From assembly GCA_964587535.1 (NCBI GenBank), contig CAZPMA010000002.1:4847-68846 (forward strand): a stretch of DNA of 64,000 nt, written 5' to 3'. A program made the position numbers and the translations under genes. The notes under the pieces are model-generated. The model worked only from the letters and a program-made list of their open reading frames with translations. It did not search any database and was not told the DNA's origin. This DNA comes from an uncultured Bacteroidales bacterium. Lineage in GTDB: Bacteria > Bacteroidota > Bacteroidia > Bacteroidales > UBA12077. Shown one piece after another: positions 16,389 to 58,168 of this stretch (positions are counted from its first letter, which is position 1; every line of letters begins with the position of its first letter).

Positions 16389-19300
16389 TTGCATAAGACA
16401 TTAATATATATATTGTTATTAGCTATTCCTTTTTGCGGTTCTTCTCAGAATTTAAGCAATGTAAGAACTAAGTATATAAACATCTATAATGATACTATAA
16501 AGATTGATTCTTTAAGTTTAATACCCAATTCGGAAATTATCATCAATGACAATAGTGTAGTTTCAAAAAATCATTATTCTATTAACTATCCCGATGCGCT
16601 TCTAATCTTATCAGATTCAATTTACTTTTTAACAAAACAATTAAAAATTACTTACAGGGTTTTTCCTGTTAATTTTCAAGAAGAATCTTATTATCGAAAA
16701 AAAGAAAAAACAATTATTACCGGTCCGGTGTTGGCTGTGCCCAAATCTGTTTCAACTAATCTTAACCCAAATTTTTTTACCGACAATCATTTAAACAAGC
16801 AAGGAAGTATATCAAGAGGAATTACCATAGGAAACAATCAGGATGCTGTAATAAATTCTAATTTAAATATTCAGTTAACAGGTAAGTTAAATGATAAAGT
16901 AAACATTCTAGCTGCAATCTCCGACGAAAATATTCCTATTCAGCCAGATGGAAATTCTCAGCAAATACAAGAGTTTGATAAAATTTTTATACAATTATAC
17001 AATGAAAAGACAAAGCTTATTGCAGGAGATTTTATGATATCCAAGCCTGAAGGTTATTTCTTAAATCTTAATAAGAAAGCTCAAGGGGGGCTTTTTAGCA
17101 CAAATATATCAAGCAAAAAAAGCAAAGACATAAAAATAACAAGTACAGTAAGCGGAGCTTTTTCTAAAGGTAAATATTGCAGAAAATCATTTCAAGGACA
17201 AGAAGGAAATCAAGGTCCATATAAACTTACAGGATGCGAAAACGAACAATTTATTATTGTTCTTGCCGGCTCTGAAAGAGTATATATTAATGGTAAGCTT
17301 AAAAGTCGCGGACAAGAATATGATTACACAATAAATTATAATACCGGTGAAATAATATTTACTTCAAATCAACCTATAAACAAAGATTCAAGAATTGCAG
17401 TTGAATTTGAGTATTCTGAACAGAGCTACTCACGATACATGCTTTATACAGCTAATACAATAAAAACTAAAAAAGGGAAGATCTGGATTAATGCTTTTTC
17501 GGAACAAGACAGCAAAACGCAACCATTAAATCAGGATTTAACAAATGAACAAAAGGAAATATTAAATAAATCTGGAGATAATATTGAAAATGCATTTGCT
17601 GAAAACATTGACAGCGTTGGCTTTAACAGTGATTTTGTTTTATATGAAAAAACTGACACCTTGGTCTCAACAGTAAATTACACTATTTACAAATACTCTA
17701 CCAACCCACAAAAAGCCTTTTATCAAATTGGATTTAGCTATGTGGGAGAAAATAAAGGAAATTATATTCAAACACAAACTTCTGCCAATGGAAAAGTTTT
17801 TAAATGGATTGCTCCGATTGATAATGTTCCGCAAGGGAATTATGAACCAATAAGACTTTTAGTATCTCCAAAAAAGATACAGTTATTTAATTTTGGTGGA
17901 AATTTAAAAATTAATGAAAAAACAAGAACATTTTTTGAAGTTGCCTTTAGCAACTACGATATCAATACTTTTTCAGACAAAGATGCTTCAGACAATGTGG
18001 GTTATGGTTTGAAAGTGAATGCTGAACAAAAACTATTTGCAAAAGATACAAGCAGAAATGCATTATACACAAACATTTCGTATCAGTTGTTAGATGAAAA
18101 CTTTACCACCCCGGAAAAGTTCAGAAGTGTTGAATTTGACAGAGACTGGAATTTACATTCAGATTTACAAGGGAACGAACATTTAGCAGAAATTGATCTA
18201 AACTACAGACACAAAAATAATGTGTATACAAATTATGGTTTTAGTTATTTAGAAAGAACTTCAATGTACGAAGGATATAAAAATCGATTAAATTTCAGTT
18301 TATATAAATCAGGATATAATTTCGGGTTTAATTCCAGCATTTTAAATACCAGTTCAAACCAATACAATACTCAATTTATTAGATACTTAGCTAATTTATC
18401 AAAATCATTTCAAAAAATATCGTTAGGATTAGAAAATGAGTATGAAAATAATCAGTGGACTCAACAATCTGATAGTCTGTATTTAACTAGCTTTCGTTTT
18501 TCGTCATATAAAATGTATGTTCAAAATTCTGATTCTACCATAAATAAATACTTTGCAAGTTATACGTTAAGAGATGATTATCTGCCATATAATAATAATC
18601 TTTCACATAGTTCAAAAGCAGAAGACTTCAGTATTGGTTTTGGATTGCTAAAAAATCCAAATAGTATTCTAAGAGCAAAAGTTAATTATCGATTACTAAA
18701 TATAATTGACACATCCATTATTAACCAAGCTGATGAGAAGACTTTAACCGGAAGAATTGATTATTCCTTCAAACTATTTAAAGGCACAATTTCTTCGTTT
18801 ACTTTTTACGAAGCAGGTTCAGGTCTGGAGCCCAAAAGAGAATATTCCTATGTAAAAGTTGCAAATGGTCAGGGAATATATTCATGGACAGACTACAACA
18901 GCAATAATGTTGCTGAATTAGATGAATTTGAAATTGCAAAATTTCAAGATGAAGCAAATTATATAAGAATATATACTCCTAGTAATGAATATATTAAATC
19001 ATACTCAAACGAATTTAGTCAAATTTTCAACATACGACCTTCTTCTATTTGGAGATCGAAAAATGATTTAAGAAAAATTCTGTCATTATTCTCCAACAAT
19101 TTTGCATACTCCATAAAACAAAAATCGACAAATGATGATCTAAAAAAAAGTTTAAATCCATTTTATGTTGATAATAACAGTAAATCTGTTATTAATCTCA
19201 ATCAGAATTTTAGAAACACTTTTTCATTTAACAGCTTAAAATCTAAATTGGGTATTGATTATATATATCAAAACAACCATAATAATATTTTACTTTCAAA

Positions 19301-19838
19301 TGGCTTAGACGAAAGGAGAAAAGAGCTTAATTCTTTAAGAATCAGATGGAATATTTTTTCTGGTTTTACTATATTAAATAGTACAGAAAAAGGAACAAAA
19401 ACATATATTTCTCAATACTTTAGTAGCAAAAACTATTTCATTAGCAATACTCTGAATGAAGTAAAATTTCAATACCAACCGGGCTTTGTAGCCAAAGCAG
19501 AACTAAATTATAGTTATAATTGTAAAGATAATCAAGAAGCAACAGAAAAGGCAATTATTCATAAAGTTGGAACTGAAATAAACTATTCCTTTAAATCGAA
19601 AGCTAATTTATTGCTACAGGGAAACTATTTTAACATTGCGTATAATTCTGAAATTAATACTTCGGTAGCATATGAAATGCTTGAAGGTCTAAAACCTGGG
19701 AATAATGGAACATGGAGTGTAATATTCCAACAAAAAATTGCTAAAAATATCGAGTTCAATTTAAATTATACGGGTCGTATATCAGAAAATATTAAAGCAA
19801 TACATACAGGAAGCATGCAAGTGCGTGCCTTTTTCTAA
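16389..19838 (+). CDS. Large conserved-looking outer-membrane protein (putative beta-barrel) of unknown function
   Basis: 1149 aa. TTG start followed by a signal-peptide-like KTLIYILLLAIPFCGSSQ. Rich in N, Y and S with alternating patterns throughout, ending in ...MQVRAFF (C-terminal aromatic). I recognise no catalytic motif. Confidence 0.5.
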   Translation: MHKTLIYILLLAIPFCGSSQNLSNVRTKYINIYNDTIKIDSLSLIPNSEIIINDNSVVSKNHYSINYPDALLILSDSIYFLTKQLKITYRVFPVNFQEESYYRKKEKTIITGPVLAVPKSVSTNLNPNFFTDNHLNKQGSISRGITIGNNQDAVINSNLNIQLTGKLNDKVNILAAISDENIPIQPDGNSQQIQEFDKIFIQLYNEKTKLIAGDFMISKPEGYFLNLNKKAQGGLFSTNISSKKSKDIKITSTVSGAFSKGKYCRKSFQGQEGNQGPYKLTGCENEQFIIVLAGSERVYINGKLKSRGQEYDYTINYNTGEIIFTSNQPINKDSRIAVEFEYSEQSYSRYMLYTANTIKTKKGKIWINAFSEQDSKTQPLNQDLTNEQKEILNKSGDNIENAFAENIDSVGFNSDFVLYEKTDTLVSTVNYTIYKYSTNPQKAFYQIGFSYVGENKGNYIQTQTSANGKVFKWIAPIDNVPQGNYEPIRLLVSPKKIQLFNFGGNLKINEKTRTFFEVAFSNYDINTFSDKDASDNVGYGLKVNAEQKLFAKDTSRNALYTNISYQLLDENFTTPEKFRSVEFDRDWNLHSDLQGNEHLAEIDLNYRHKNNVYTNYGFSYLERTSMYEGYKNRLNFSLYKSGYNFGFNSSILNTSSNQYNTQFIRYLANLSKSFQKISLGLENEYENNQWTQQSDSLYLTSFRFSSYKMYVQNSDSTINKYFASYTLRDDYLPYNNNLSHSSKAEDFSIGFGLLKNPNSILRAKVNYRLLNIIDTSIINQADEKTLTGRIDYSFKLFKGTISSFTFYEAGSGLEPKREYSYVKVANGQGIYSWTDYNSNNVAELDEFEIAKFQDEANYIRIYTPSNEYIKSYSNEFSQIFNIRPSSIWRSKNDLRKILSLFSNNFAYSIKQKSTNDDLKKSLNPFYVDNNSKSVINLNQNFRNTFSFNSLKSKLGIDYIYQNNHNNILLSNGLDERRKELNSLRIRWNIFSGFTILNSTEKGTKTYISQYFSSKNYFISNTLNEVKFQYQPGFVAKAELNYSYNCKDNQEATEKAIIHKVGTEINYSFKSKANLLLQGNYFNIAYNSEINTSVAYEMLEGLKPGNNGTWSVIFQQKIAKNIEFNLNYTGRISENIKAIHTGSMQVRAFF

Positions 19839-37367: not shown

Positions 37368-38822
37368 TTATTTAACAGAATCAATAGCTGTATTTAATGC
37401 TTTCTCCAATAACTCAACATCTGGTTTAGCAATGAAATTATGATCCATCATTAAATCAATTGTTGATCGAGTATGTTTAATATCTTCTAGCGTTTTATTA
37501 TAAGCTTCTTCCCATGTCATTTTAACACGAGCTACTCCATTTTTAATAGCTTCCATAGCTACATCTGCAGCTTCTACTGCAAACATTTCTGTCTCGTCCA
37601 TTTTTGGCATAATATAATCAGGGTTTATACCTTTCTTTTCTGCATAATCAGCCATCGAATAAGCAGCTCTAACTGCCATTTCATCAGTAATTTTTCGCGC
37701 ACGAACCAATAAAGCTCCTTTTAAAATTCCTGGGAATCCAAGTGAGTTATTTACCTGATTTGGGAAATCACCACGGCCTGTTGCCACGATATATGCTCCT
37801 GCTTCTTTTGCTGCATATGGATAAATCTCAGGAACAGGATTAGCACATGCAAAAACAATTGGCTTGTCGCCCATATTCTTAATCCATTCTGGTTTTACAA
37901 CATCAGGACCTGGTTTGCTAACAGCAATTAACACATCAGCACCTTTACATGCTTCTGCTACATCATTAATTTTATTTGGGTTTGTTTTTTCACACAACTC
38001 CCATTTACGGTAAAAACGTTTATCAGCTTTTATATCTTCTCTATCTTTATGCAATCCTGCCTTAGAATCAAATATGATCATTTTGGTAGGATCACCACCT
38101 GCTTGTAAGATCAATCGAGAAATTGTTGCGTTTGCAGCACCAGCTCCGTACATCACAATCTTAACATCCTTAATATTCTTTTTTACAATTCTCAGGGCAT
38201 TAATTAATCCTGCTACAGTTACAGAACCTGTACCTTGCGCATCATCGTGCCAAACAGGTATATCACACTCATCACGCAAAGTATCCAGGACCTTATAACA
38301 ATTAGGTTGAGAAATATCTTCTAAATTAACCGCTCCAAAGCTTGGTTGAAGCATTTTTACAAAATTAATAATCTTATCAGGATCGTGCTCACCTTTTTCA
38401 TTATAGCTATCAACACATAAAGCTACAGCATCAATTCCTGCTAAGTATTTCATTAAATAAGCTTTGCCTTCCATAACTCCAAGACCTCCGGGTGGGGTAC
38501 AATCTCCATCACCAAGTACACGAGTTGAATCAGAAACAACTGCTACCATATTACCACGATTCGACAACTCGAAAGAGAAATCGTTATTATCTCTTATGGA
38601 AGTAGATACTTTTGATACGCCTGGAGTATAATATACATTAAACCAGTTAAATCCATAAATACCTGCTTTGGGAAGAGTTTGCATCTTACCACCGTAGAAT
38701 TTATGGCTATGAAATGCCAGCTCTTTTAAGAAAACAGTTTTTGCTTTTGCAATTTGTTCTTGAGAAAAGTCACTGGGAAAAAGTTCATCAAGATTTTGAA
38801 GTGACAAGTCTACTTTTGACAT
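37368..38822 (-). CDS. NAD(P)-dependent malic enzyme (short bacterial type)
   Basis: 484 aa. Motifs YTPGV, VVSDSTRVLGDGD, GVMEGKAYLMKYLAGIDA, NLEDISQPNC, IPVWHDDAQGTG, and Rossmann MYGAGAAN. Confidence 0.85.
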   Translation of the reverse strand: MSKVDLSLQNLDELFPSDFSQEQIAKAKTVFLKELAFHSHKFYGGKMQTLPKAGIYGFNWFNVYYTPGVSKVSTSIRDNNDFSFELSNRGNMVAVVSDSTRVLGDGDCTPPGGLGVMEGKAYLMKYLAGIDAVALCVDSYNEKGEHDPDKIINFVKMLQPSFGAVNLEDISQPNCYKVLDTLRDECDIPVWHDDAQGTGSVTVAGLINALRIVKKNIKDVKIVMYGAGAANATISRLILQAGGDPTKMIIFDSKAGLHKDREDIKADKRFYRKWELCEKTNPNKINDVAEACKGADVLIAVSKPGPDVVKPEWIKNMGDKPIVFACANPVPEIYPYAAKEAGAYIVATGRGDFPNQVNNSLGFPGILKGALLVRARKITDEMAVRAAYSMADYAEKKGINPDYIMPKMDETEMFAVEAADVAMEAIKNGVARVKMTWEEAYNKTLEDIKHTRSTIDLMMDHNFIAKPDVELLEKALNTAIDSVK

Positions 38823-52747: not shown

Positions 52748-55129
52748 ATGTATTCAATTGACAATTATAATTTCGAAGGTAAAAAAGTATTAATTCGTGT
52801 AGATTTTAACGTACCGTTAAATGACAAACTAGAAATTTCAGATGATACAAGAATTGTAACAGCAGTACCAACGATTCAGAAAATTTTAGCCGAAGGAGGC
52901 TCTATCATTTTATTAACCCACCTGGGAAGACCAAAAGGACAGTATAACGAAAAAATGTCTGTTAAAATAATACTTCCACGTGTAAGTAAATTATTAGGTC
53001 GGGAAGTAAAATTTGCGTCTGACTGTGTCGGTCCGGATGCCAAGAAAAAAGCTGAAGAACTTAAACCTGGTGAAGTCCTTTTATTAGAAAACTTGCGATT
53101 TCATAAAGAAGAAACAAATGCAGATGAAGAGTTTGCCAGAAAACTGGCAAGCTTAGGGGATGCATATGTAAACGATGCATTTGGAACTGCACACAGAAAA
53201 CATGCATCAACGTTTACTATTGCAAAATACTTCCCAAAAAACAGCATGTTTGGGTATCTTGTTGAAAACGAAATTAATAACATTGATAAAATATTACATC
53301 AACCAATTCATCCATTCACTGCAATTTTAGGGGGATCAAAAGTCTCTACTAAAATTCACATTATTGAATCTTTAATTGAAAAAGTTGATAATTTAATTAT
53401 TGCCGGGGGTATTGGTTTTACTTTTGCAAAAGCAATGGGTGGTAAAATAGGGAATTCATTGGTTGAGGATGACTTTTTAAATTTTGCTAAACATATTATC
53501 AGTAAAGCAGAAAAAAATAAAGTTAAATTATACTTACCTACAGATTGCATAGTTGCTAATGAATTTAAAAATGATGCTAAGATTGACCACTGCAATATTA
53601 TGGAAATACCAGATGGATGGATGGGATTAGATATTGGTATTAAATCTGCAAATCGTTTTGCTGAAGTTATAGAAAATTCGAAAAAAATACTCTGGAATGG
53701 TCCAATTGGGGTTTTTGAAATGCCGAGCTTCGCCATGGGTACTTTGAAAGTTGCAATGTCTGTTGCCAGAGCTACAGATAAAGGAGCATTTTCATTAATT
53801 GGTGGGGGCGATTCAATTGCTGCAGTTAATAAATATAGCCTGGCACATAAGATTAGTTATATCTCAACAGCAGGTGGTGCTTTGCTTGAATATCTGGAAG
53901 GAAAAGAATTGCCAAGTATTAAAGCAATTAAGCAGAATCTAACAATTGATAAGTATAATTTTGAAGGTAAAAAAGTGTTAATGCGTGTTGATTTTAATGT
54001 GCCATTAGATGAAAATTTTGAGATAATGGATACAACCAGAATCGTAACAGCATTACCAACTGTTCGTAAAATTTTAGCTGAAGGAGGATCCGTAATTTTC
54101 CTAACTCATATAGGTCGCCCAAAAGGTAAAGTAGATGAAAAATACTCCGTGAAACATATTTTACCATATTTAAATAAAGTACTTGATGGTAAAGTAAAAT
54201 TCGTTGATGACTGTGTAGGAGAAAAGGCAATTATTGCATCTACAGTTTTAAATCCTGGCGAATGCCTGTTACTTGAAAATCTGAGATTTCATAAAGAAGA
54301 AACAGAAGCTGACGAAAATTTTGCAAAAAAATTATCTGAACTTGGCGACGCATATGTTTTTAATGCTTTTGGGACTGCACACAGGGCTCATGCGTCGACA
54401 TATACTATTGCTAAATTCTTCCCGAATGATAAAATGTTTGGATATCTGGTAGAAAATGAAATTAGTAATATTGACAAAGTTGTTAAAAAAGGGAAAAGAC
54501 CATTTACTGCTATTTTAGGTGGGTCAAAAGTTTCTACCAAAATTCATATCATAGAAGCTTTAATTGAAAAAGTTGATAACCTGATTATAGGTGGTGGAAT
54601 TGCCTATACATTCTCTAAAGCAATGGGTGGTAAAATTGGTGATTCTTTAGTAGAAAATGATTATATTGATGTAGCTAAAAATATAATCATTAAAGCAAAA
54701 GAAAAAAACATAAACCTATACTTACCTACCGATTGTATCATTGCGGATGATTTTAAAAACGATGCAAATATTGAACATTGCGAAATTAATCAGATTAAAG
54801 ATGGATGGATGGGATTAGATGCAGGTATAAAATCTACCAACAAGTTTACTGAAGTTATTGAAAGTTCTGCTACAATATTATGGAATGGTCCTGTGGGAGT
54901 TTTTGAAATGTCGAATTTCTCGATGGGCACATTAAAAATAGCAATGGCAGTTGCTCGCGCAACAGATAAAGGAGCATTCTCATTAATTGGAGGTGGAGAT
55001 TCTATCTCCGCAGTTAATAAATTTAGTCTTGCTCATAAAATAAGTTATATTTCAACTGCTGGTGGTGCTTTATTAGAATATATTGAAGGAAAACAGTTGC
55101 CTGCATTAAAGGCAATTGTTGAAGATATT
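52748..55129 (+). repeat. Internal tandem duplication, about 1.19 kb per unit, diverged (PGK unit 1 / PGK unit 2)
   Basis: Junction at 53941/53942: ...AAG CAG AAT CTA | ACA ATT GAT AAG TAT AAT TTT GAA GGT. Unit 2 aligns to unit 1 from codon 3. The units look roughly 70% identical in amino acids by eye, with many synonymous differences even in blocks with identical residues. Confidence 0.85.
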
Positions 55130-55132
55130 TAA
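52748..55132 (+). CDS. pgk: Tandem double phosphoglycerate kinase: two complete PGK units fused in one polypeptide
   Basis: 794 aa. Unit 1 is residues 1-398 (nt 52748-53941) and unit 2 is residues 399-794 (nt 53942-55129). Each has RVDFNVP, D(D/T)TRI, TH(L/I)GRPKG, LENLRFHKEE, AFGTAHR(K/A)HAST, AILGGSKVSTKIHII, WNGP(I/V)GVFEM, IGGGDSI, STAGGALLEY. Confidence 0.85.
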   Translation: MYSIDNYNFEGKKVLIRVDFNVPLNDKLEISDDTRIVTAVPTIQKILAEGGSIILLTHLGRPKGQYNEKMSVKIILPRVSKLLGREVKFASDCVGPDAKKKAEELKPGEVLLLENLRFHKEETNADEEFARKLASLGDAYVNDAFGTAHRKHASTFTIAKYFPKNSMFGYLVENEINNIDKILHQPIHPFTAILGGSKVSTKIHIIESLIEKVDNLIIAGGIGFTFAKAMGGKIGNSLVEDDFLNFAKHIISKAEKNKVKLYLPTDCIVANEFKNDAKIDHCNIMEIPDGWMGLDIGIKSANRFAEVIENSKKILWNGPIGVFEMPSFAMGTLKVAMSVARATDKGAFSLIGGGDSIAAVNKYSLAHKISYISTAGGALLEYLEGKELPSIKAIKQNLTIDKYNFEGKKVLMRVDFNVPLDENFEIMDTTRIVTALPTVRKILAEGGSVIFLTHIGRPKGKVDEKYSVKHILPYLNKVLDGKVKFVDDCVGEKAIIASTVLNPGECLLLENLRFHKEETEADENFAKKLSELGDAYVFNAFGTAHRAHASTYTIAKFFPNDKMFGYLVENEISNIDKVVKKGKRPFTAILGGSKVSTKIHIIEALIEKVDNLIIGGGIAYTFSKAMGGKIGDSLVENDYIDVAKNIIIKAKEKNINLYLPTDCIIADDFKNDANIEHCEINQIKDGWMGLDAGIKSTNKFTEVIESSATILWNGPVGVFEMSNFSMGTLKIAMAVARATDKGAFSLIGGGDSISAVNKFSLAHKISYISTAGGALLEYIEGKQLPALKAIVEDI

Positions 55133-55346: not shown

Positions 55347-55375
55347 AGATTACGTTTATATGTAATCTTTTTTTA
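55347..55375 (+). terminator. Rho-independent terminator downstream of the double-PGK gene
   Basis: AGATTAC-gtttatat-GTAATCT followed by TTTTTTT. It lies about 215 nt after the stop codon. Confidence 0.6.
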
Positions 55376-55437
55376 TTGCTAAAAAAACAAATTTGGAGTA
55401 AATTGCGTTTCCTTACATTAAACCTAACTCAATAAAC

Positions 55438-55443
55438 AGGAGG
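55438..55443 (+). promoter_or_regulatory. Perfect Shine-Dalgarno AGGAGG 5 nt upstream of the PGK-paralog ATG
   Basis: Sequence cAGGAGGtaaatATG. Same spacing as the SD of the malic enzyme gene. SDs are otherwise absent upstream of genes in this window. Confidence 0.6.
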
Positions 55444-55448
55444 TAAAT

Positions 55449-56735
55449 ATGCTCGATAAATATAATATTCCATCTATACAAGATGCAGACCTAAATGGCA
55501 AAGTTGTTTTAGTTCGAGTAGATCATAATGTTGTGAAAAAAGGCATAATACATGATCCATATCGAATTGATGCCACTATTGGAACTTTATACCACATTAA
55601 TGCCAGAGGAGGTAAGATAATTCTGATGTCGCATGTTGGCAGACCAAAAGATAAAAAAACAGGAGATATAATAATAAGTAAAGATACATCTGTTGAACCT
55701 ATTGTTGAGTACCTTAGAAACAAGCTCCACATCAACATGAAAATTCCTGATTTTTATCCACACGAAAACAAGGGATACATAGGAATTGAAACATCCATAA
55801 ATCATTTAATTCGAGAGCTTAAAGACGGTAAAATCGACGGAATTTATTTGCCAAATACCAGATGGTTCCAAGGAGAAGAAGCAAAAGGTGAAGATCAGGA
55901 TAGATTTGCCAATCAATTAGCCGGATTAGCAGATATCTTTGTAAATGATGCATTTGGATCATGGCAAGCACATGCTTCTACAGTAGGTGTTAATAAATAT
56001 TTGCCATCCTATGCCGGGTTTTTAATGCAAAAAGAAATTGAAAATCTGGAAAGAATTTATAGCCCACAATCGCCATTTATTGCTGTTGTTGCCGGCTCAA
56101 AGTTCGACACAAAAATTGATTCATTATATGCATTAATTAAAAAAGCAGATTACCTGGTCCTTGGTGGAGTAATCTATAATGCGTATTTGTGTGCGAAATA
56201 TGGAATCGAAATCAAAGGAATATCTAAGGACGATTTAGAACATGCAAAAGAATTCGTTAAATTTAGTGAACAATATCCGGGTAAACTGATAGAGCTTCCT
56301 TTTATTATTGAGTCTGATACCTTAGATGGTAAATTTGAAGGAAAAAATAGAGTGCACAACATTCATGAATTAAAATCAGGAACAAAGTTAAATTATATAT
56401 TAGATGTTGCTAAGCAATCCTTCTATGAAGAAAATATACATAAGATATTTTCTTCGGCAAGGACAATTTTTGTGAATGCGGTAATGGGATTTACACCACA
56501 TTTTAACGAAGGTACAATTGCTTTGGACGAATTAATTGATGAAAATGTGGAAGCAGTTAAGTTATATGGTGGTGGAGATACCATGCAAGAGTTAAAAAGA
56601 TTACTGCCCGGATTGTACATTGTTGCATTAGATAGTCCTAAATATTACATTTTTACTGGTGGCGGAGCAGTTTTAAAAGCAATACAAGAGGGAACAACTT
56701 TGGGAATTGAACCGGTAAAGGTTTTAACAAAATAA
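55449..56735 (+). CDS. Divergent phosphoglycerate-kinase-family paralog, substrate uncertain
   Basis: 428 aa. The PGK scaffold is recognisable (MSHVGRPKD, VNDAFGS..AHAST, AGSKFDTKI, YGGGDT, FTGGGAVL). Several substrate motifs are altered: RVDHNVV for RVDFNVP, LPNTRW for LENLRF, AFGSWQAHAS for AFGTAHRAHAS, NAVMGFTPHF for NGPxGVFE. Confidence 0.7.
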   Translation: MLDKYNIPSIQDADLNGKVVLVRVDHNVVKKGIIHDPYRIDATIGTLYHINARGGKIILMSHVGRPKDKKTGDIIISKDTSVEPIVEYLRNKLHINMKIPDFYPHENKGYIGIETSINHLIRELKDGKIDGIYLPNTRWFQGEEAKGEDQDRFANQLAGLADIFVNDAFGSWQAHASTVGVNKYLPSYAGFLMQKEIENLERIYSPQSPFIAVVAGSKFDTKIDSLYALIKKADYLVLGGVIYNAYLCAKYGIEIKGISKDDLEHAKEFVKFSEQYPGKLIELPFIIESDTLDGKFEGKNRVHNIHELKSGTKLNYILDVAKQSFYEENIHKIFSSARTIFVNAVMGFTPHFNEGTIALDELIDENVEAVKLYGGGDTMQELKRLLPGLYIVALDSPKYYIFTGGGAVLKAIQEGTTLGIEPVKVLTK

Positions 56736-56767
56736 ATATTTTTTGCATTTTTGCATTATAAAAATTA

Positions 56768-56800
56768 GAAGTCAGTTTGAATACTGGCTTCTTTTCTTCT
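56768..56800 (+). terminator. Rho-independent terminator after the PGK paralog
   Basis: GAAGTCAGT-ttgaat-ACTGGCTTC (9 bp including one G-U pair) followed by TTTTCTTCT. It lies inside the N-terminal extension of the PMM ORF given by the ORF track, which supports the later ATG for that gene. Confidence 0.7.
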
Positions 56801-56830
56801 AAATATTTCTTTTTAAATAATTTAATATAT

Positions 56831-58168
56831 ATGAAAGCGTTTAAGGCATACGATATTCGTGGTATTTACAATGATGATTTTAATAAGCAAGATGCTTACA
56901 AGATTGGGTTTTTTCTTCCGGAATTATTACAAGCCGACAATATTCTAGTGGGGCGTGATGTTAGAGTTTCATCTGATGAAATCTTTGAACATCTGGCACA
57001 AGGTATTATTGATAGTGGAGCTAATGTTTATAACATTGGAATTTCAACAACTCCAATGGTGTATTATATAACTGCTAAACACAAATTTGCCGCATCTGTT
57101 CAAATCACTGCATCGCATAATGCAAGAGAATACAATGGGATGAAAATATCTAAAAGCAATGCTTTACCTGTAGGTTTCGATACCGGGTTAAATAAACTTT
57201 TAGAAATGATACAAACCCGAGAGATAGAAATAGCCGATAAAAAAGGTAAGATTGTGGATTACAATGTAAAAGATGAATATGTTCAGTTTTTAAAATCATA
57301 TGTTCAGGATTATTCAAATCTTAATATTGCTGTAGACTGTTCAAATGGCATGGCTGCTTTCTTAATCAAAAAGTTTTTGGGTAAAAACCCTATTTATTTA
57401 TACGACAAATTGGATGGCACATTCCCAAATCATGAACCTAATCCATTAATTGAAGAAAACGTTGAAGATCTTAAAAAAGCTGTATTAGATAATGCCTGTG
57501 ATCTTGGAATAATTTTCGACGGTGATGCCGACAGGGTTATGTTTGTTGATGAAAAAGGACAATTCATTTCGCCAGACTTAATAATCGGTTTAATGGGTCA
57601 TTATTTTCTGGAAAAAGAAAAAGGCGCGGTACTGGAAGATATCAGAACATCAAAAGCAGTAAAAAAATATATTGAAGATTTAGGTGGTGAAATGCATACA
57701 TGGAGAGTAGGAAGGGCTTATGCAGCTCCTAAACTTCGTGAAATTAATGGCATATATGGTGGCGAATTAGCAGGACATTATTACTTCCGCGATTTCTTCT
57801 ATTCTGATTCGGGAATAATGGCAGCATTAATTGTTTTAAATCTATTATCCCGATTTAAAAATGAAGGTAAAACAATGTCTGATTTAATTTCTCGTATTAG
57901 TAAATATGCGAACTCCGGCGAGATTAACTTTAAAATAGAACAAAAACAAGAAGCTATAGAAGCAATTAAAAACTACTTTGTAACTGAAGAAGAACCTATG
58001 GAAATTCTTGATTTCGATGGTTGCCGGCTAGAATTTAAGGACTGGTGGTTTAACGTACGACCATCGAATACAGAACCTTATTTAAGACTTTTAGCAGAAG
58101 CTGATAATGAAGAACTCTTGAATAAAAAGCTGGAAGAAATAAAAACCATCATTAAGAAATTTAAATAA
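56831..58168 (+). CDS. Phosphomannomutase/phosphoglucomutase (alpha-D-phosphohexomutase family)
   Basis: Start placed at ATG 56831 (MKAFKAYDIRGIY...), 445 aa. Catalytic Ser loop TASHNAREYNGMK, Mg loop FDGDADR, sugar loop GGELAGH, phosphate loop RPSNTEP. Confidence 0.88.
   Translation: MKAFKAYDIRGIYNDDFNKQDAYKIGFFLPELLQADNILVGRDVRVSSDEIFEHLAQGIIDSGANVYNIGISTTPMVYYITAKHKFAASVQITASHNAREYNGMKISKSNALPVGFDTGLNKLLEMIQTREIEIADKKGKIVDYNVKDEYVQFLKSYVQDYSNLNIAVDCSNGMAAFLIKKFLGKNPIYLYDKLDGTFPNHEPNPLIEENVEDLKKAVLDNACDLGIIFDGDADRVMFVDEKGQFISPDLIIGLMGHYFLEKEKGAVLEDIRTSKAVKKYIEDLGGEMHTWRVGRAYAAPKLREINGIYGGELAGHYYFRDFFYSDSGIMAALIVLNLLSRFKNEGKTMSDLISRISKYANSGEINFKIEQKQEAIEAIKNYFVTEEEPMEILDFDGCRLEFKDWWFNVRPSNTEPYLRLLAEADNEELLNKKLEEIKTIIKKFK

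What the first reader, a model, noticed from the sequence alone, without database searches (positions are those of the whole stretch)
55449..56735. Third, strongly diverged PGK-family paralog with a remodelled 3-PG pocket
A 428-aa protein, in its own transcription unit 316 nt downstream of the double PGK, is clearly PGK-fold. It retains SHVGRP, the catalytic-Lys context AGSKFDTKI, the Mg-binding GGGDT and the hinge TGGGA. The residues that define substrate binding are changed. RVDFNVP becomes RVDHNVV. LENxRF becomes LPNTRW. AFGTAHRAHAS becomes AFGSWQAHAS, one residue shorter, with the His-Arg pair of the basic patch lost. The nucleotide loop NGPxGVFE becomes NAVMGFTPHF, and GGGMAxTF becomes GGVIYNAY. 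It also has an insertion of about 30 aa (HINMKIPDFYPHENKGYIGIETSINHL...). Keeping the phosphoryl-transfer core while altering the acceptor pocket is the classic signature of neofunctionalisation, here possibly to a different carboxylate or phospho-acid substrate. I cannot assign the substrate.
Basis: partly seen in the sequence, partly recalled or inferred. Interest (0 to 1): 0.7.

Follow-up and report, generated by a model that had tools for sequence, protein, structure and literature searches.

The report
Remodelled, highly conserved phosphoglycerate-kinase paralog
This gene encodes a real, strongly conserved relative of the glycolytic enzyme phosphoglycerate kinase that keeps the catalytic core but has changed the residues gripping both substrates, and it belongs to an undescribed subfamily found beside the normal enzyme in hundreds of anaerobic bacteria.

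Summary
ORF 55449-56735 (+) encodes a 428-aa full-length PGK-family protein. Pfam PF00162 scores 283 bits; the AlphaFold model has pLDDT 94 and TM 0.84-0.87 to solved PGKs.

It is not a decaying copy. It is more conserved than the canonical double PGK next to it (96-77% against 87-71% in the same genome pairs; dN/dS about 0.02). It defines a monophyletic clade (VDHNVV, LPNTRW, GSWQxHAS, NAVMG) that is 74-96% identical across Bacteroidales, Desulfobacterales, Spirochaetota and Holophagaceae. A pattern scan found relatives in 410 GTDB species genomes.

All residues that contact the transferred phosphoryl group are invariant. Arg170 and His169 of the 3-phosphate site, and Glu343, Pro338 and the Leu256 loop of the adenosine site, are replaced. 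So both substrate sites changed, not only the acceptor pocket.

The recurring neighbours are canonical pgk (34 of 80 loci), PMM/PGM (31), gap and pgi. No new pathway operon appears.

Best reading: an active, non-redundant kinase at or near the 1,3-BPG/3-PG step, with altered specificity or phosphoryl partner. Substrate unassigned. New variant of a known kind.

The parts
55449..56735 (+). CDS of the 428-aa divergent PGK-family protein ('WQ-type PGK', called PGK3 here)
   Evidence: ORF list. Pfam PF00162 at 283 bits, full length. AF2 pLDDT 94.4 and Foldseek TM 0.84-0.87 to PGK structures. dN/dS 0.014-0.038.
55347..55374 (+). AT-rich hairpin (AGATTAC-N8-GTAATCT) followed by a T-run; the likely terminator of the upstream double-PGK gene
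   Evidence: Sequence. It forms the strongest local helix in the RNA fold of the spacer. The consensus terminator scan missed it because it has fewer than 3 G-C pairs. Function is inferred.
55373..55412 (+). Conserved non-coding block (TTATTGC-AAAAAACAAATTTG-GAGTAAATTGCGTTTCC); a promoter-like region for PGK3
   Evidence: Aligned upstream regions of 20 related genomes keep this block while the flanking spacer varies. Promoter function is inferred. It resembles the Bacteroidetes TAnnTTTG type, which I recall from general knowledge and did not test.
55438..55444 (+). Shine-Dalgarno sequence AGGAGGT, 4 nt before the ATG
   Evidence: Sequence. Conserved in all 28 loci with PGK3 at 85% identity or more where upstream sequence was available. 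Present in only 3 of 36 long ORFs of the window.
56767..56802 (+). Hairpin (10 bp, 4 G-C) plus T-rich tail directly after the PGK3 stop codon; a terminator-like site
   Evidence: Terminator scan.
52748..55132 (+). Upstream neighbour: a 794-aa tandem fusion of two complete canonical PGK units (context, not part of the protein)
   Evidence: Pfam PGK at 1002 bits in 2 stretches. The halves are 72% identical to each other and 31-34% identical to PGK3. The arrangement is conserved in about 30 genomes.
56831..58168 (+). Downstream neighbour: a four-domain phosphomannomutase/phosphoglucomutase (context). The ATG at 56831 is a more likely start than the TTG at 56777.
   Evidence: Pfam PGM_PMM_I-IV. 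NCBIfam hits are below cut-off. Orthologues are 445 aa. The hairpin at 56767-56792 overlaps the TTG-start extension.

Best explanation
The gene encodes a catalytically competent phosphotransferase of the PGK fold. It belongs to a distinct, previously undescribed and unusually slowly evolving subfamily, with signature VDHNVV / LPNTRWF-GEE / GSWQxHAS / AGSKxDTKI / NAVMG / GGGDT.

Shown: all residues that touch the transferred phosphoryl group, the alpha/beta phosphates and Mg2+, and the two hinges, are invariant. So are the ligands of the 2-hydroxy-carboxylate end of the substrate (Asp23, Asn25, Arg38) and three of the four positive ligands of its distal anion (His62, Arg65, Arg122).

Inferred: it still catalyses acyl-phosphate / phospho-anhydride transfer on a 3-PG-like 2-hydroxy acid carrying a distal anionic group. 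The most likely substrate pair is 1,3-bisphosphoglycerate / 3-phosphoglycerate, within glycolysis or gluconeogenesis.

Two recognition 'handles' have been rebuilt. One is the fourth ligand of the 3-phosphate (His169-Arg170 to Trp-Gln, one residue shorter, next to a conserved Lys-Lys-Thr-Gly insertion after GRPK). The other is the adenosine pocket (Glu343 deleted, Pro338 to Val, Gly337 to Ala, Trp335 to Val, Leu256 loop shortened). The protein is therefore expected to differ from the co-resident canonical PGK in substrate affinity, anion regulation and/or nucleotide (phosphoryl-partner) preference. That would explain why both are kept.

In this window it is transcribed on its own, from a conserved promoter-like block with an unusually strong Shine-Dalgarno site.
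For: Fold and family.

Catalytic residues (human numbering) in the 46-sequence clade set:
- 100% conserved: D23, N25, H62, R65, N120, R122, E192, G213, K215, K219, N336, G340, G372-373, T393, G394 and G396.
- 98% conserved: R38, G371 and G395.
GGGDT is present in the window protein and in nearly all aligned clade members.

Clade-wide replacements.

Selection: PGK3 is more conserved than the double PGK, PMM, holB and PSP1 in 27 genome pairs. dN/dS is 0.014-0.038. All 85 loci carry an intact full-length or contig-truncated ORF.

Co-residence with canonical PGK: 34 of 80 GTDB loci have one within 4 genes upstream. 30 of these are immediately adjacent on the same strand. Four are single 387-416-aa PGKs at gaps of 2-77 nt.

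Glycolytic context:
- gap immediately downstream in L073 and L076.
- pgi upstream in L045, L057 and L060.
- Enolase about 8.6 kb and PMM about 7 kb upstream in L077.
- PMM/PGM downstream in 31 of 80 loci.

Literature: R65, R122 and R170 bind the 3-phosphate (PMC7729029). R38, K219, N336 and E343 are needed for domain closure (PMC3900376).
Against: No biochemical data exist.

Arg170 and Glu343 are reported as conserved in all PGKs of the three domains (PMC3723536), and Glu343 as essential for domain closure. A protein lacking both may therefore not handle 3-PG/ADP at all.

I could not show any genome in which PGK3 is the only PGK, which would prove PGK activity.

Outside one Bacteroidales lineage the gene stands alone among unrelated genes, so the glycolytic context rests on a minority of lineages. 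The PGK-PGK3 adjacency could simply reflect shared ancestry of one Bacteroidales group.

I had no access to model coordinates. Statements about pocket geometry are inferred from alignment only.
Confidence: 0.45

Rival explanations
1. New acceptor substrate. The enzyme phosphorylates, or takes a phosphoryl group from the acyl phosphate of, a different 2-hydroxy acid with a distal anionic group that is less charged or longer than the 3-phosphate of 3-PG. Examples are a sulfonate such as 3-sulfolactate, a phosphonate, or a 4-phospho-C4 acid such as 4-phosphoerythronate.
For: H169W and R170Q, plus a one-residue deletion at the 3-phosphate site, are invariant in the clade. E119P and F123W flank Arg122. 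A conserved KKTG insertion follows the GRPK phosphate loop. It coexists with canonical PGK, so identical activity would be redundant. A non-glycolytic role of a PGK-like paralog has a precedent in green algae (PMC7826186).
Against: Among 80 GTDB and about 15 further loci, no locus contains transporters, dehydrogenases or hydrolases of a sulfonate, phosphonate or sugar-acid pathway next to the gene. The recurring neighbours are pgk, gap, pgi and PMM. Most 3-PG ligands (D23, N25, R38, H62, R65, R122) are retained. The nucleotide site changed as much as the acceptor site, which this hypothesis does not explain.
Confidence: 0.22
2. New phosphoryl partner. The enzyme still uses 1,3-BPG / 3-PG but exchanges the phosphoryl group with something other than ADP/ATP. 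Candidates are another nucleotide or an inorganic acceptor: Pi giving PPi, or polyphosphate, the orphan activity EC 2.7.4.17.
For: Every ligand of the alpha/beta phosphates and Mg2+ is kept (K219, N336, GGGDT). The adenosine-specific elements are lost or rebuilt: Glu343 (ribose OH) is deleted, P338V, G337A, W335V, V341F, G238V, A240Y, and the G253-x-S255-L256 adenine cap is shortened by two residues with Leu256 to Gly (roles from PMC7729029). EC 2.7.4.17 has never been purified or assigned a gene (PMC5932413). The PPi source of PPi-dependent glycolysis is unknown (PMC8863071). The hosts are anaerobes of sediments and bioreactors (record titles).
Against: This is purely inferential. A rebuilt pocket can still bind adenosine, for example by Phe348 stacking. 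No PPi- or polyP-related genes recur next to the gene. No such PGK has ever been reported (one search found no paper). I did not test whether the host genomes use PPi-dependent PFK or PPDK.
Confidence: 0.15
3. Ordinary, functionally redundant PGK isoenzyme whose substitutions are neutral or compensated. Nothing is special beyond sequence divergence.
For: Databases name it phosphoglycerate kinase. It has the full PGK fold. It sits in a gap-adjacent position typical of pgk in two lineages.
Against: Neutral drift does not produce a clade-invariant signature under stronger constraint than the canonical enzyme in the same genomes. The positions changed are among those reported invariant in 620 PGKs from three domains. 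A redundant copy would not be retained next to an already duplicated PGK in 30 or more species.
Confidence: 0.12
4. Non-catalytic PGK-like protein: a regulatory, scaffolding or moonlighting pseudo-enzyme. Known examples are the 'dead' PGK-like proteins of kinetoplastids and the PGK in the Mycoplasma mobile gliding machinery.
For: Two residues reported as essential (R170, E343) are missing. It is very highly conserved, as expected for a protein with many interaction constraints. Precedents are listed in PMC7729029 and bioRxiv 10.1101/2024.06.11.597861.
Against: Pseudo-enzymes usually lose catalytic residues. Here K215, K219, R38, N336, the GGGDT Mg site and both Gly-rich hinges are 98-100% conserved. 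There are no extra domains and no partner gene.
Confidence: 0.05

Closest known systems
Canonical phosphoglycerate kinase (EC 2.7.2.3; Pfam PF00162), e.g. Geobacillus stearothermophilus 1PHP, Thermotoga maritima 1VPE, human PGK1
   Same: Two-domain fold (TM 0.84-0.87). Same length class. The same phosphoryl-transfer residues, Mg site and hinge glycines, and the same ligands for the 2-OH and carboxylate end of 3-PG. Sits next to gap or pgk in several genomes.
   Different: Only 24-31% structural-alignment identity, and 155 bits to the best PDB sequence. His169-Arg170 become Trp-Gln (one residue shorter), with E119P and F123W. Pro27 and Glu343 are deleted. W335V, G337A, P338V and S392F. The adenine-capping loop is 2 residues shorter. 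About 30 extra residues lie in 7 or more small insertions. It forms its own clade and evolves more slowly than the canonical enzyme in the same genomes.
Non-canonical PGK-like proteins of green algae (PGK3, PGK4A/B) linked to ArsJ and ars-GAPDH (PMC7826186)
   Same: PGK-family paralogs that sit outside the canonical clade, coexist with canonical PGK and are sometimes adjacent to a GAPDH gene. Their enzymatic role is unknown.
   Different: The algal genes neighbour an ArsJ-type MFS transporter, and a mutant is arsenate-sensitive. No ArsJ-like gene is near any of the loci examined here. GAPDH adjacency occurs in only 2 of 80 loci.
Catalytically dead or multidomain PGK-like proteins of kinetoplastids and diplonemids (PGKL, PAS-PGK; PMC7729029)
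   Same: Diverged PGK domains retained alongside functional PGKs.
   Different: Those proteins carry substitutions or deletions of catalytic residues and/or extra domains (PAS, cNMP-binding). The protein here is single-domain-architecture, with the catalytic set intact.
PPi-dependent acetate kinase of Entamoeba histolytica (EC 2.7.2.12). An analogy recalled from general knowledge, not a homolog.
   Same: It would be the same evolutionary logic: an acyl-phosphate kinase that keeps its phosphoryl-transfer machinery but rebuilds the adenosine pocket and so changes phosphoryl partner.
   Different: Unrelated fold (ASKHA). For the PGK paralog a change of partner is only a hypothesis.

Membership tests
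Phosphoglycerate kinase family (Pfam PF00162 / PGK fold) | Full-length match to the family profile above the curated threshold | tested here: met
   282.9 bits against a cut-off of 27, covering profile positions 1-377 of 379. All hits are PGKs, in PDB by sequence and by structure.
Phosphoglycerate kinase family (Pfam PF00162 / PGK fold) | Two Rossmann-like domains joined by a hinge | tested here: met
   AF2 model with pLDDT 94.4 and pTM 0.90. Foldseek TMt is 0.86 to 1PHP, 0.87 to 3UWD and 0.84 to 1VPE.
Functional PGK, EC 2.7.2.3 | Phosphoryl-transfer and Mg/phosphate ligands: Arg38, Lys215, Lys219, Asn336, Gly371-373, Asp374-Thr375, Thr393, Gly394-396 | tested here: met
   All present in the window protein and 98-100% conserved in the clade.
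Functional PGK, EC 2.7.2.3 | Complete 3-PG basic patch: His62, Arg65, Arg122, Arg170 (with His169), plus Asp23/Asn25 | tested here: not met
   His62, Arg65, Arg122, Asp23 and Asn25 are present. His169 is Trp and Arg170 is Gln, with a one-residue deletion, in 98-100% of clade members. Canonical PGKs have H at 99% and R at 98%.
Functional PGK, EC 2.7.2.3 | Adenosine-binding elements: the N336-G-P-x-G-x-F-E343 loop and the G253-x-S-L256 cap | tested here: not met
   N336 and G340 are kept. G337A, P338V and V341F. E343 is deleted. The cap is shortened by 2 residues with L256 to G.
Functional PGK, EC 2.7.2.3 | Catalyses 3-PG + ATP = 1,3-BPG + ADP | not testable with these tools
   Needs an enzyme assay or complementation of a pgk mutant.
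Arsenate-resistance PGK-like genes (algal PGK3/PGK4 type) | Gene neighbourhood with an ArsJ-type transporter and ars-GAPDH | tested here: not met
   No MFS/ArsJ-like neighbour in any examined locus. GAPDH is adjacent in only L073 and L076.
Arsenate-resistance PGK-like genes (algal PGK3/PGK4 type) | Phylogenetic membership in the algal PGK3/PGK4 clades | not tested
Pseudogene / decaying duplicate | Relaxed selection, frameshifts or truncated orthologues | tested here: not met
   dN/dS is 0.014-0.038. Intact ORFs in all 85 loci with a called gene. More conserved than the neighbouring housekeeping genes.

The most novel reading that the evidence does not exclude
The protein is a PGK-fold enzyme that passes the acyl-phosphate of 1,3-bisphosphoglycerate to a non-adenylate acceptor: orthophosphate (making PPi) or polyphosphate. 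This would be the gene for the orphan activity EC 2.7.4.17. It would give anaerobes that run PPi-dependent glycolysis a direct glycolytic source of PPi or polyP. The evidence does not exclude it. The alpha/beta-phosphate and Mg ligands are intact while the adenosine-specific ligands are gone.
Probability: 0.07. Interest if true: 0.9.

Novelty: new variant of a known kind. Interest (0 to 1): 0.6.

Why it matters
PGK is treated as one of the most uniform enzymes of central metabolism. A survey of 620 sequences from all three domains found its active-site residues invariant except at positions 219 and 336 (PMC3723536).

Here is a coherent, cross-phylum subfamily, with relatives detected in 410 GTDB species genomes and all annotated simply as 'phosphoglycerate kinase'. 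It breaks that rule at Arg170, His169 and Glu343. It is under tighter constraint than the canonical enzyme, and it is kept alongside it.

At the least, automatic annotation of these genes as EC 2.7.2.3 is unverified, and metabolic reconstructions of many anaerobic Bacteroidales and Desulfobacterales MAGs count an enzyme of unknown specificity as PGK.

If it proves to have a different acid substrate or phosphoryl partner, it would be the first neofunctionalised bacterial PGK. It could also bear on open questions such as the PPi source in PPi-dependent glycolysis.

It is easy to test. The protein is small, soluble and single-gene, and standard coupled assays exist.

Tried and rejected
1. Single-sequence AlphaFold gave pLDDT 36 and was discarded. 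The model built from an 81-sequence alignment was used instead.
2. Riboswitch or leader RNA in the 316-nt spacer: no Rfam match at E up to 1. The fold z-score of -2.1 is explained by the terminator hairpin.
3. Operon clues from distant clade members (P0130, P0121) and from Desulfobacterales, 'Altiarchaeales' and other lineages: neighbours are unrelated and not conserved.
4. Spread by phage: no relative in 2.9 million viral contigs.
5. Literature. Nothing in the searched library, nor in the passages read from the PGK review PMC7729029, describes this bacterial PGK subfamily, a PPi-dependent PGK, or natural PGKs lacking Arg170.
6. Arsenate-resistance link (algal PGK-like): rejected for lack of ArsJ neighbours.
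7. Pseudogene or relaxed selection: rejected.
8. Misalignment of the basic patch: rejected. Three alignment methods agree.
9. I could not test whether any genome has PGK3 as its sole PGK.
10. I could not inspect model coordinates, so no docking or pocket-volume analysis was possible.
Full report
OBSERVATION

The ORF at 55449-56735 (+) starts with ATG and encodes 428 aa. It lies 316 nt after the stop of a 794-aa gene (52748-55132) that is a tandem fusion of two complete PGK units. It is followed by a four-domain phosphomannomutase/phosphoglucomutase gene. The protein matches Pfam PGK (PF00162) end to end at 283 bits. Each half of the neighbouring fusion scores about 500 bits. No NCBIfam model names it specifically.

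They align to the canonical motifs as stated in three independent alignments:
- HMMER pairwise alignments to PDB PGKs.
- MAFFT with the two halves of the adjacent PGK, giving 34% and 31% identity.
- A 139-sequence MAFFT alignment.

The one inaccuracy concerns the insertion. The extra 30 or so residues are not one insertion but at least seven small ones.

STRUCTURE

Without an alignment AlphaFold failed, with pLDDT 36. With 81 aligned sequences it gave pLDDT 94.4 and pTM 0.90. Foldseek against the PDB returned only PGKs. The best were 1PHP, 3UWD and 1VPE, with TM 0.84-0.87 normalised to the target at 24-31% identity. The fold assignment is secure.

A DISTINCT CLADE

A search of 5.8 billion proteins found more than 120 clusters (at 90% identity) of 427-437 aa that are 76-100% identical to the query. 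Where named, all are called 'phosphoglycerate kinase', from Bacteroidales, Desulfobacterales/Desulfobulbaceae and a bin labelled Altiarchaeales.

An exhaustive HMMER search of 1.84 billion representatives showed a score gap:
- A few rare metagenomic outliers score 516-272 bits (56-39% identity).
- Canonical PGKs score 200 bits or less.

In a neighbour-joining tree, the core group plus these outliers is monophyletic on a long stem with short internal branches. The Desulfobacterales sequences nest inside the Bacteroidales ones, which indicates lateral transfer. A pattern scan of one genome per GTDB species found relatives in 410 genomes. The best 80 are mostly Bacteroidales MAGs, with some Spirochaetota, Holophagaceae, Lentisphaerae and Leptospiraceae bins. 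No viral contig carries it.

WHAT IS KEPT AND WHAT IS CHANGED

Human numbering is used here.

Kept at 98-100% in the clade:
- D23, N25 (2-OH ligands)
- R38
- H62, R65, N120, R122
- E192 (hinge)
- G213, K215, K219
- N336, G340
- G371-373; the adjacent Asp-Thr of GGGDT is present in the window protein and in nearly all aligned clade members
- T393, G394-396

Changed, at positions that are 90-100% conserved in canonical PGKs:
- Pro27 deleted
- E119P, F123W
- H169W, R170Q (with a one-residue deletion)
- G212A, G316A
- W335V, G337A, P338V
- Glu343 deleted
- S392F
- The G253-x-S255-L256 loop is shortened by two residues, with Leu256 replaced by an invariant Gly

According to the literature, R65, R122 and R170 bind the 3-phosphate of 3-PG. 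The adenine ring is sandwiched by hydrophobic residues, and the ribose hydroxyls are held by the acidic residue of the NGPxGxFE loop (PMC7729029). R38, K219, N336 and E343 are required for domain closure (PMC3900376). Active-site residues are conserved in 620 PGKs of all three domains except at 219 and 336 (PMC3723536).

So the chemistry-performing core is intact, and the recognition elements of both substrates have been rebuilt.

A conserved Lys-Lys-Thr-Gly insertion directly after the GRPK phosphate loop might replace the lost positive charge. This is an inference, because I could not inspect coordinates.

SELECTION

In 27 genome pairs that share synteny with the window, PGK3 identity (96-77%) always exceeds that of the double PGK (87-71%), PMM (88-61%), holB and PSP1. 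Nei-Gojobori dN/dS against 13 relatives is 0.014-0.038, or not computable because dS is saturated. Pseudogenisation and relaxed selection are excluded.

GENOMIC CONTEXT

I called ORFs in the fetched loci (L001-L086), clustered them, and tallied neighbours over the 80 GTDB loci.

- A canonical PGK lies within four genes upstream in 34 of 80 loci. In 30 it is immediately adjacent on the same strand. It is usually the 794-795-aa fusion. In L037, L043, L068 and L075 it is a single 387-416-aa PGK, only 2-77 nt away.
- PMM/PGM is immediately downstream in 31 of 80.
- In other lineages the neighbour is GAPDH (L073 at +51 nt, L076 at +258 nt) or glucose-6-phosphate isomerase (L045, L057, L060).
- Enolase lies about 8.6 kb, and PMM about 7 kb, upstream in L077.
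- Other recurrent neighbours look incidental: a class IV aminotransferase in 7-8 loci, a class I/II aminotransferase in 4-5, and gcvPA.
- In Desulfobacterales, the 'Altiarchaeales' contig and several others the gene stands alone.
- Additional metagenomic loci repeat the double-PGK/PGK3 pair.

The only recurring functional theme is glycolysis, gluconeogenesis and sugar-phosphate metabolism. No transporter or dehydrogenase set suggesting a new acid pathway appears, and no ArsJ-type gene.

TRANSCRIPTION UNIT

- The spacer contains an AT-rich hairpin plus T-run at 55347-55374.
- A 40-nt block at 55373-55412 is conserved in 20 related genomes while the surrounding spacer varies.
- A perfect Shine-Dalgarno AGGAGGT at 55438-55444 is conserved in all close relatives.
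- Only 3 of 36 long ORFs of the window have such a site.
- A hairpin plus T-run follows the stop at 56767-56792.
- No Rfam family matches the region.

Independent, probably strong, expression is the likely reading.

INTERPRETATION

Shown:
- A PGK-fold protein with an intact phosphoryl-transfer apparatus.
- Clade-invariant remodelling of the distal-anion site and the adenosine site.
- Very strong purifying selection.
- Coexistence with canonical PGK.
- Glycolytic neighbours where any pattern exists.

Inferred:
- It is an active kinase at or near the 1,3-BPG/3-PG node.
- It differs from the canonical enzyme in affinity, regulation, acid specificity or phosphoryl partner.

I rank the readings as follows:
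1. A non-redundant PGK-type enzyme still using a 3-PG-like substrate (0.45).
2. A new acid substrate (0.22).
3. A new phosphoryl partner, including Pi/PPi or polyP (0.15).
4. A plain redundant isoenzyme (0.12).
5. A pseudo-enzyme (0.05).

The closest published parallel is the set of non-canonical PGK-like genes of green algae next to ArsJ and GAPDH, whose enzymatic role is also unknown (PMC7826186). That neighbourhood is absent here.

Two open questions make the partner-change idea worth a direct assay. The orphan activity 1,3-diphosphoglycerate:polyphosphate phosphotransferase has never been purified (PMC5932413). The PPi source of PPi-dependent glycolysis is unresolved (PMC8863071). Nothing here supports the idea beyond the pattern of retained and lost ligands.

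NOVELTY AND SCORE

No paper in the searched library describes this subfamily, and databases label it plain PGK. It is a new variant of a known kind: a coherent PGK subfamily that violates the supposed invariance of the PGK substrate sites.

Interest is 0.6. The finding is real, widespread, surprising for a specialist and easy to test. Its function is unassigned, and the context points to familiar metabolism.

Noticed in passing
window 52748-55132 (+); also L006/L007, L010-L028, L094, L095: The upstream gene is a 794-aa head-to-tail fusion of two complete canonical PGK units. The halves are 72% identical and both carry all canonical motifs. The fusion is conserved at 794-795 aa in about 30 Bacteroidales MAGs, and two more double PGKs appear among the representatives (P0141, P0142). 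Why a monomeric hinge-bending enzyme is duplicated in tandem is unexplained.
   Followed up: partly
window 55438-55444 and the orthologous sites in L006-L030, L033, L039: A perfect Shine-Dalgarno AGGAGGT is conserved before PGK3 in all close relatives. Only 3 of 36 long ORFs in the window have one. The other two are a malic enzyme (37368-38822, minus strand) and a 934-aa ORF with no Pfam hit (17034-19838). Relatives at 80% identity or below mostly lack it. This suggests special translational treatment in a phylum generally said to make little use of SD sites, a point I recall from general knowledge.
   Followed up: partly
window 55373-55412: A 40-nt non-coding block (TTATTGC..AAAAAACAAATTTG..GTAAATTGCGTTTCC) is conserved upstream of PGK3 in 20 genomes, even where the spacer to the double PGK shrinks to about 72 nt. 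It is probably the promoter.
   Followed up: partly
L010 and L019, leader between the conserved block and the SD of PGK3: Two genomes carry an extra GC-rich palindrome (CCTGCCTGTCGGCAGACAGGC) inserted in the PGK3 leader and absent from all the others. It may be a small mobile repeat or a regulatory hairpin.
   Followed up: no
window 56777-58168: The PMM/PGM ORF as listed starts at TTG 56777, overlapping the terminator-like hairpin at 56767-56792. The ATG at 56831 (MKAFKAYDIRG...) gives the 445-aa length seen in orthologues and is the more likely start. Its best NCBIfam matches (PMM/PGM, archaeal GlmM) are all below the curated cut-offs, so its specificity is also open.
   Followed up: partly
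P0038 (Desulfobacterales CP070789.1), P0084 ('Altiarchaeales' MCBE01000241.1), L021 ('Thiohalospira'), L066/L073 ('Hyphomicrobiales'): PGK3 sequences from different phyla are 75-91% identical to the Bacteroidales protein, and Desulfobacterales sequences nest within Bacteroidales in the tree. This means either lateral transfer or mis-binned contigs. For example, the P0074 contig carries a Por_Secre_tail gene typical of Bacteroidota.
   Followed up: partly
window 17034-19838 (+): A 934-aa ORF with a strong SD and no Pfam match at E up to 1e-5.
   Followed up: no
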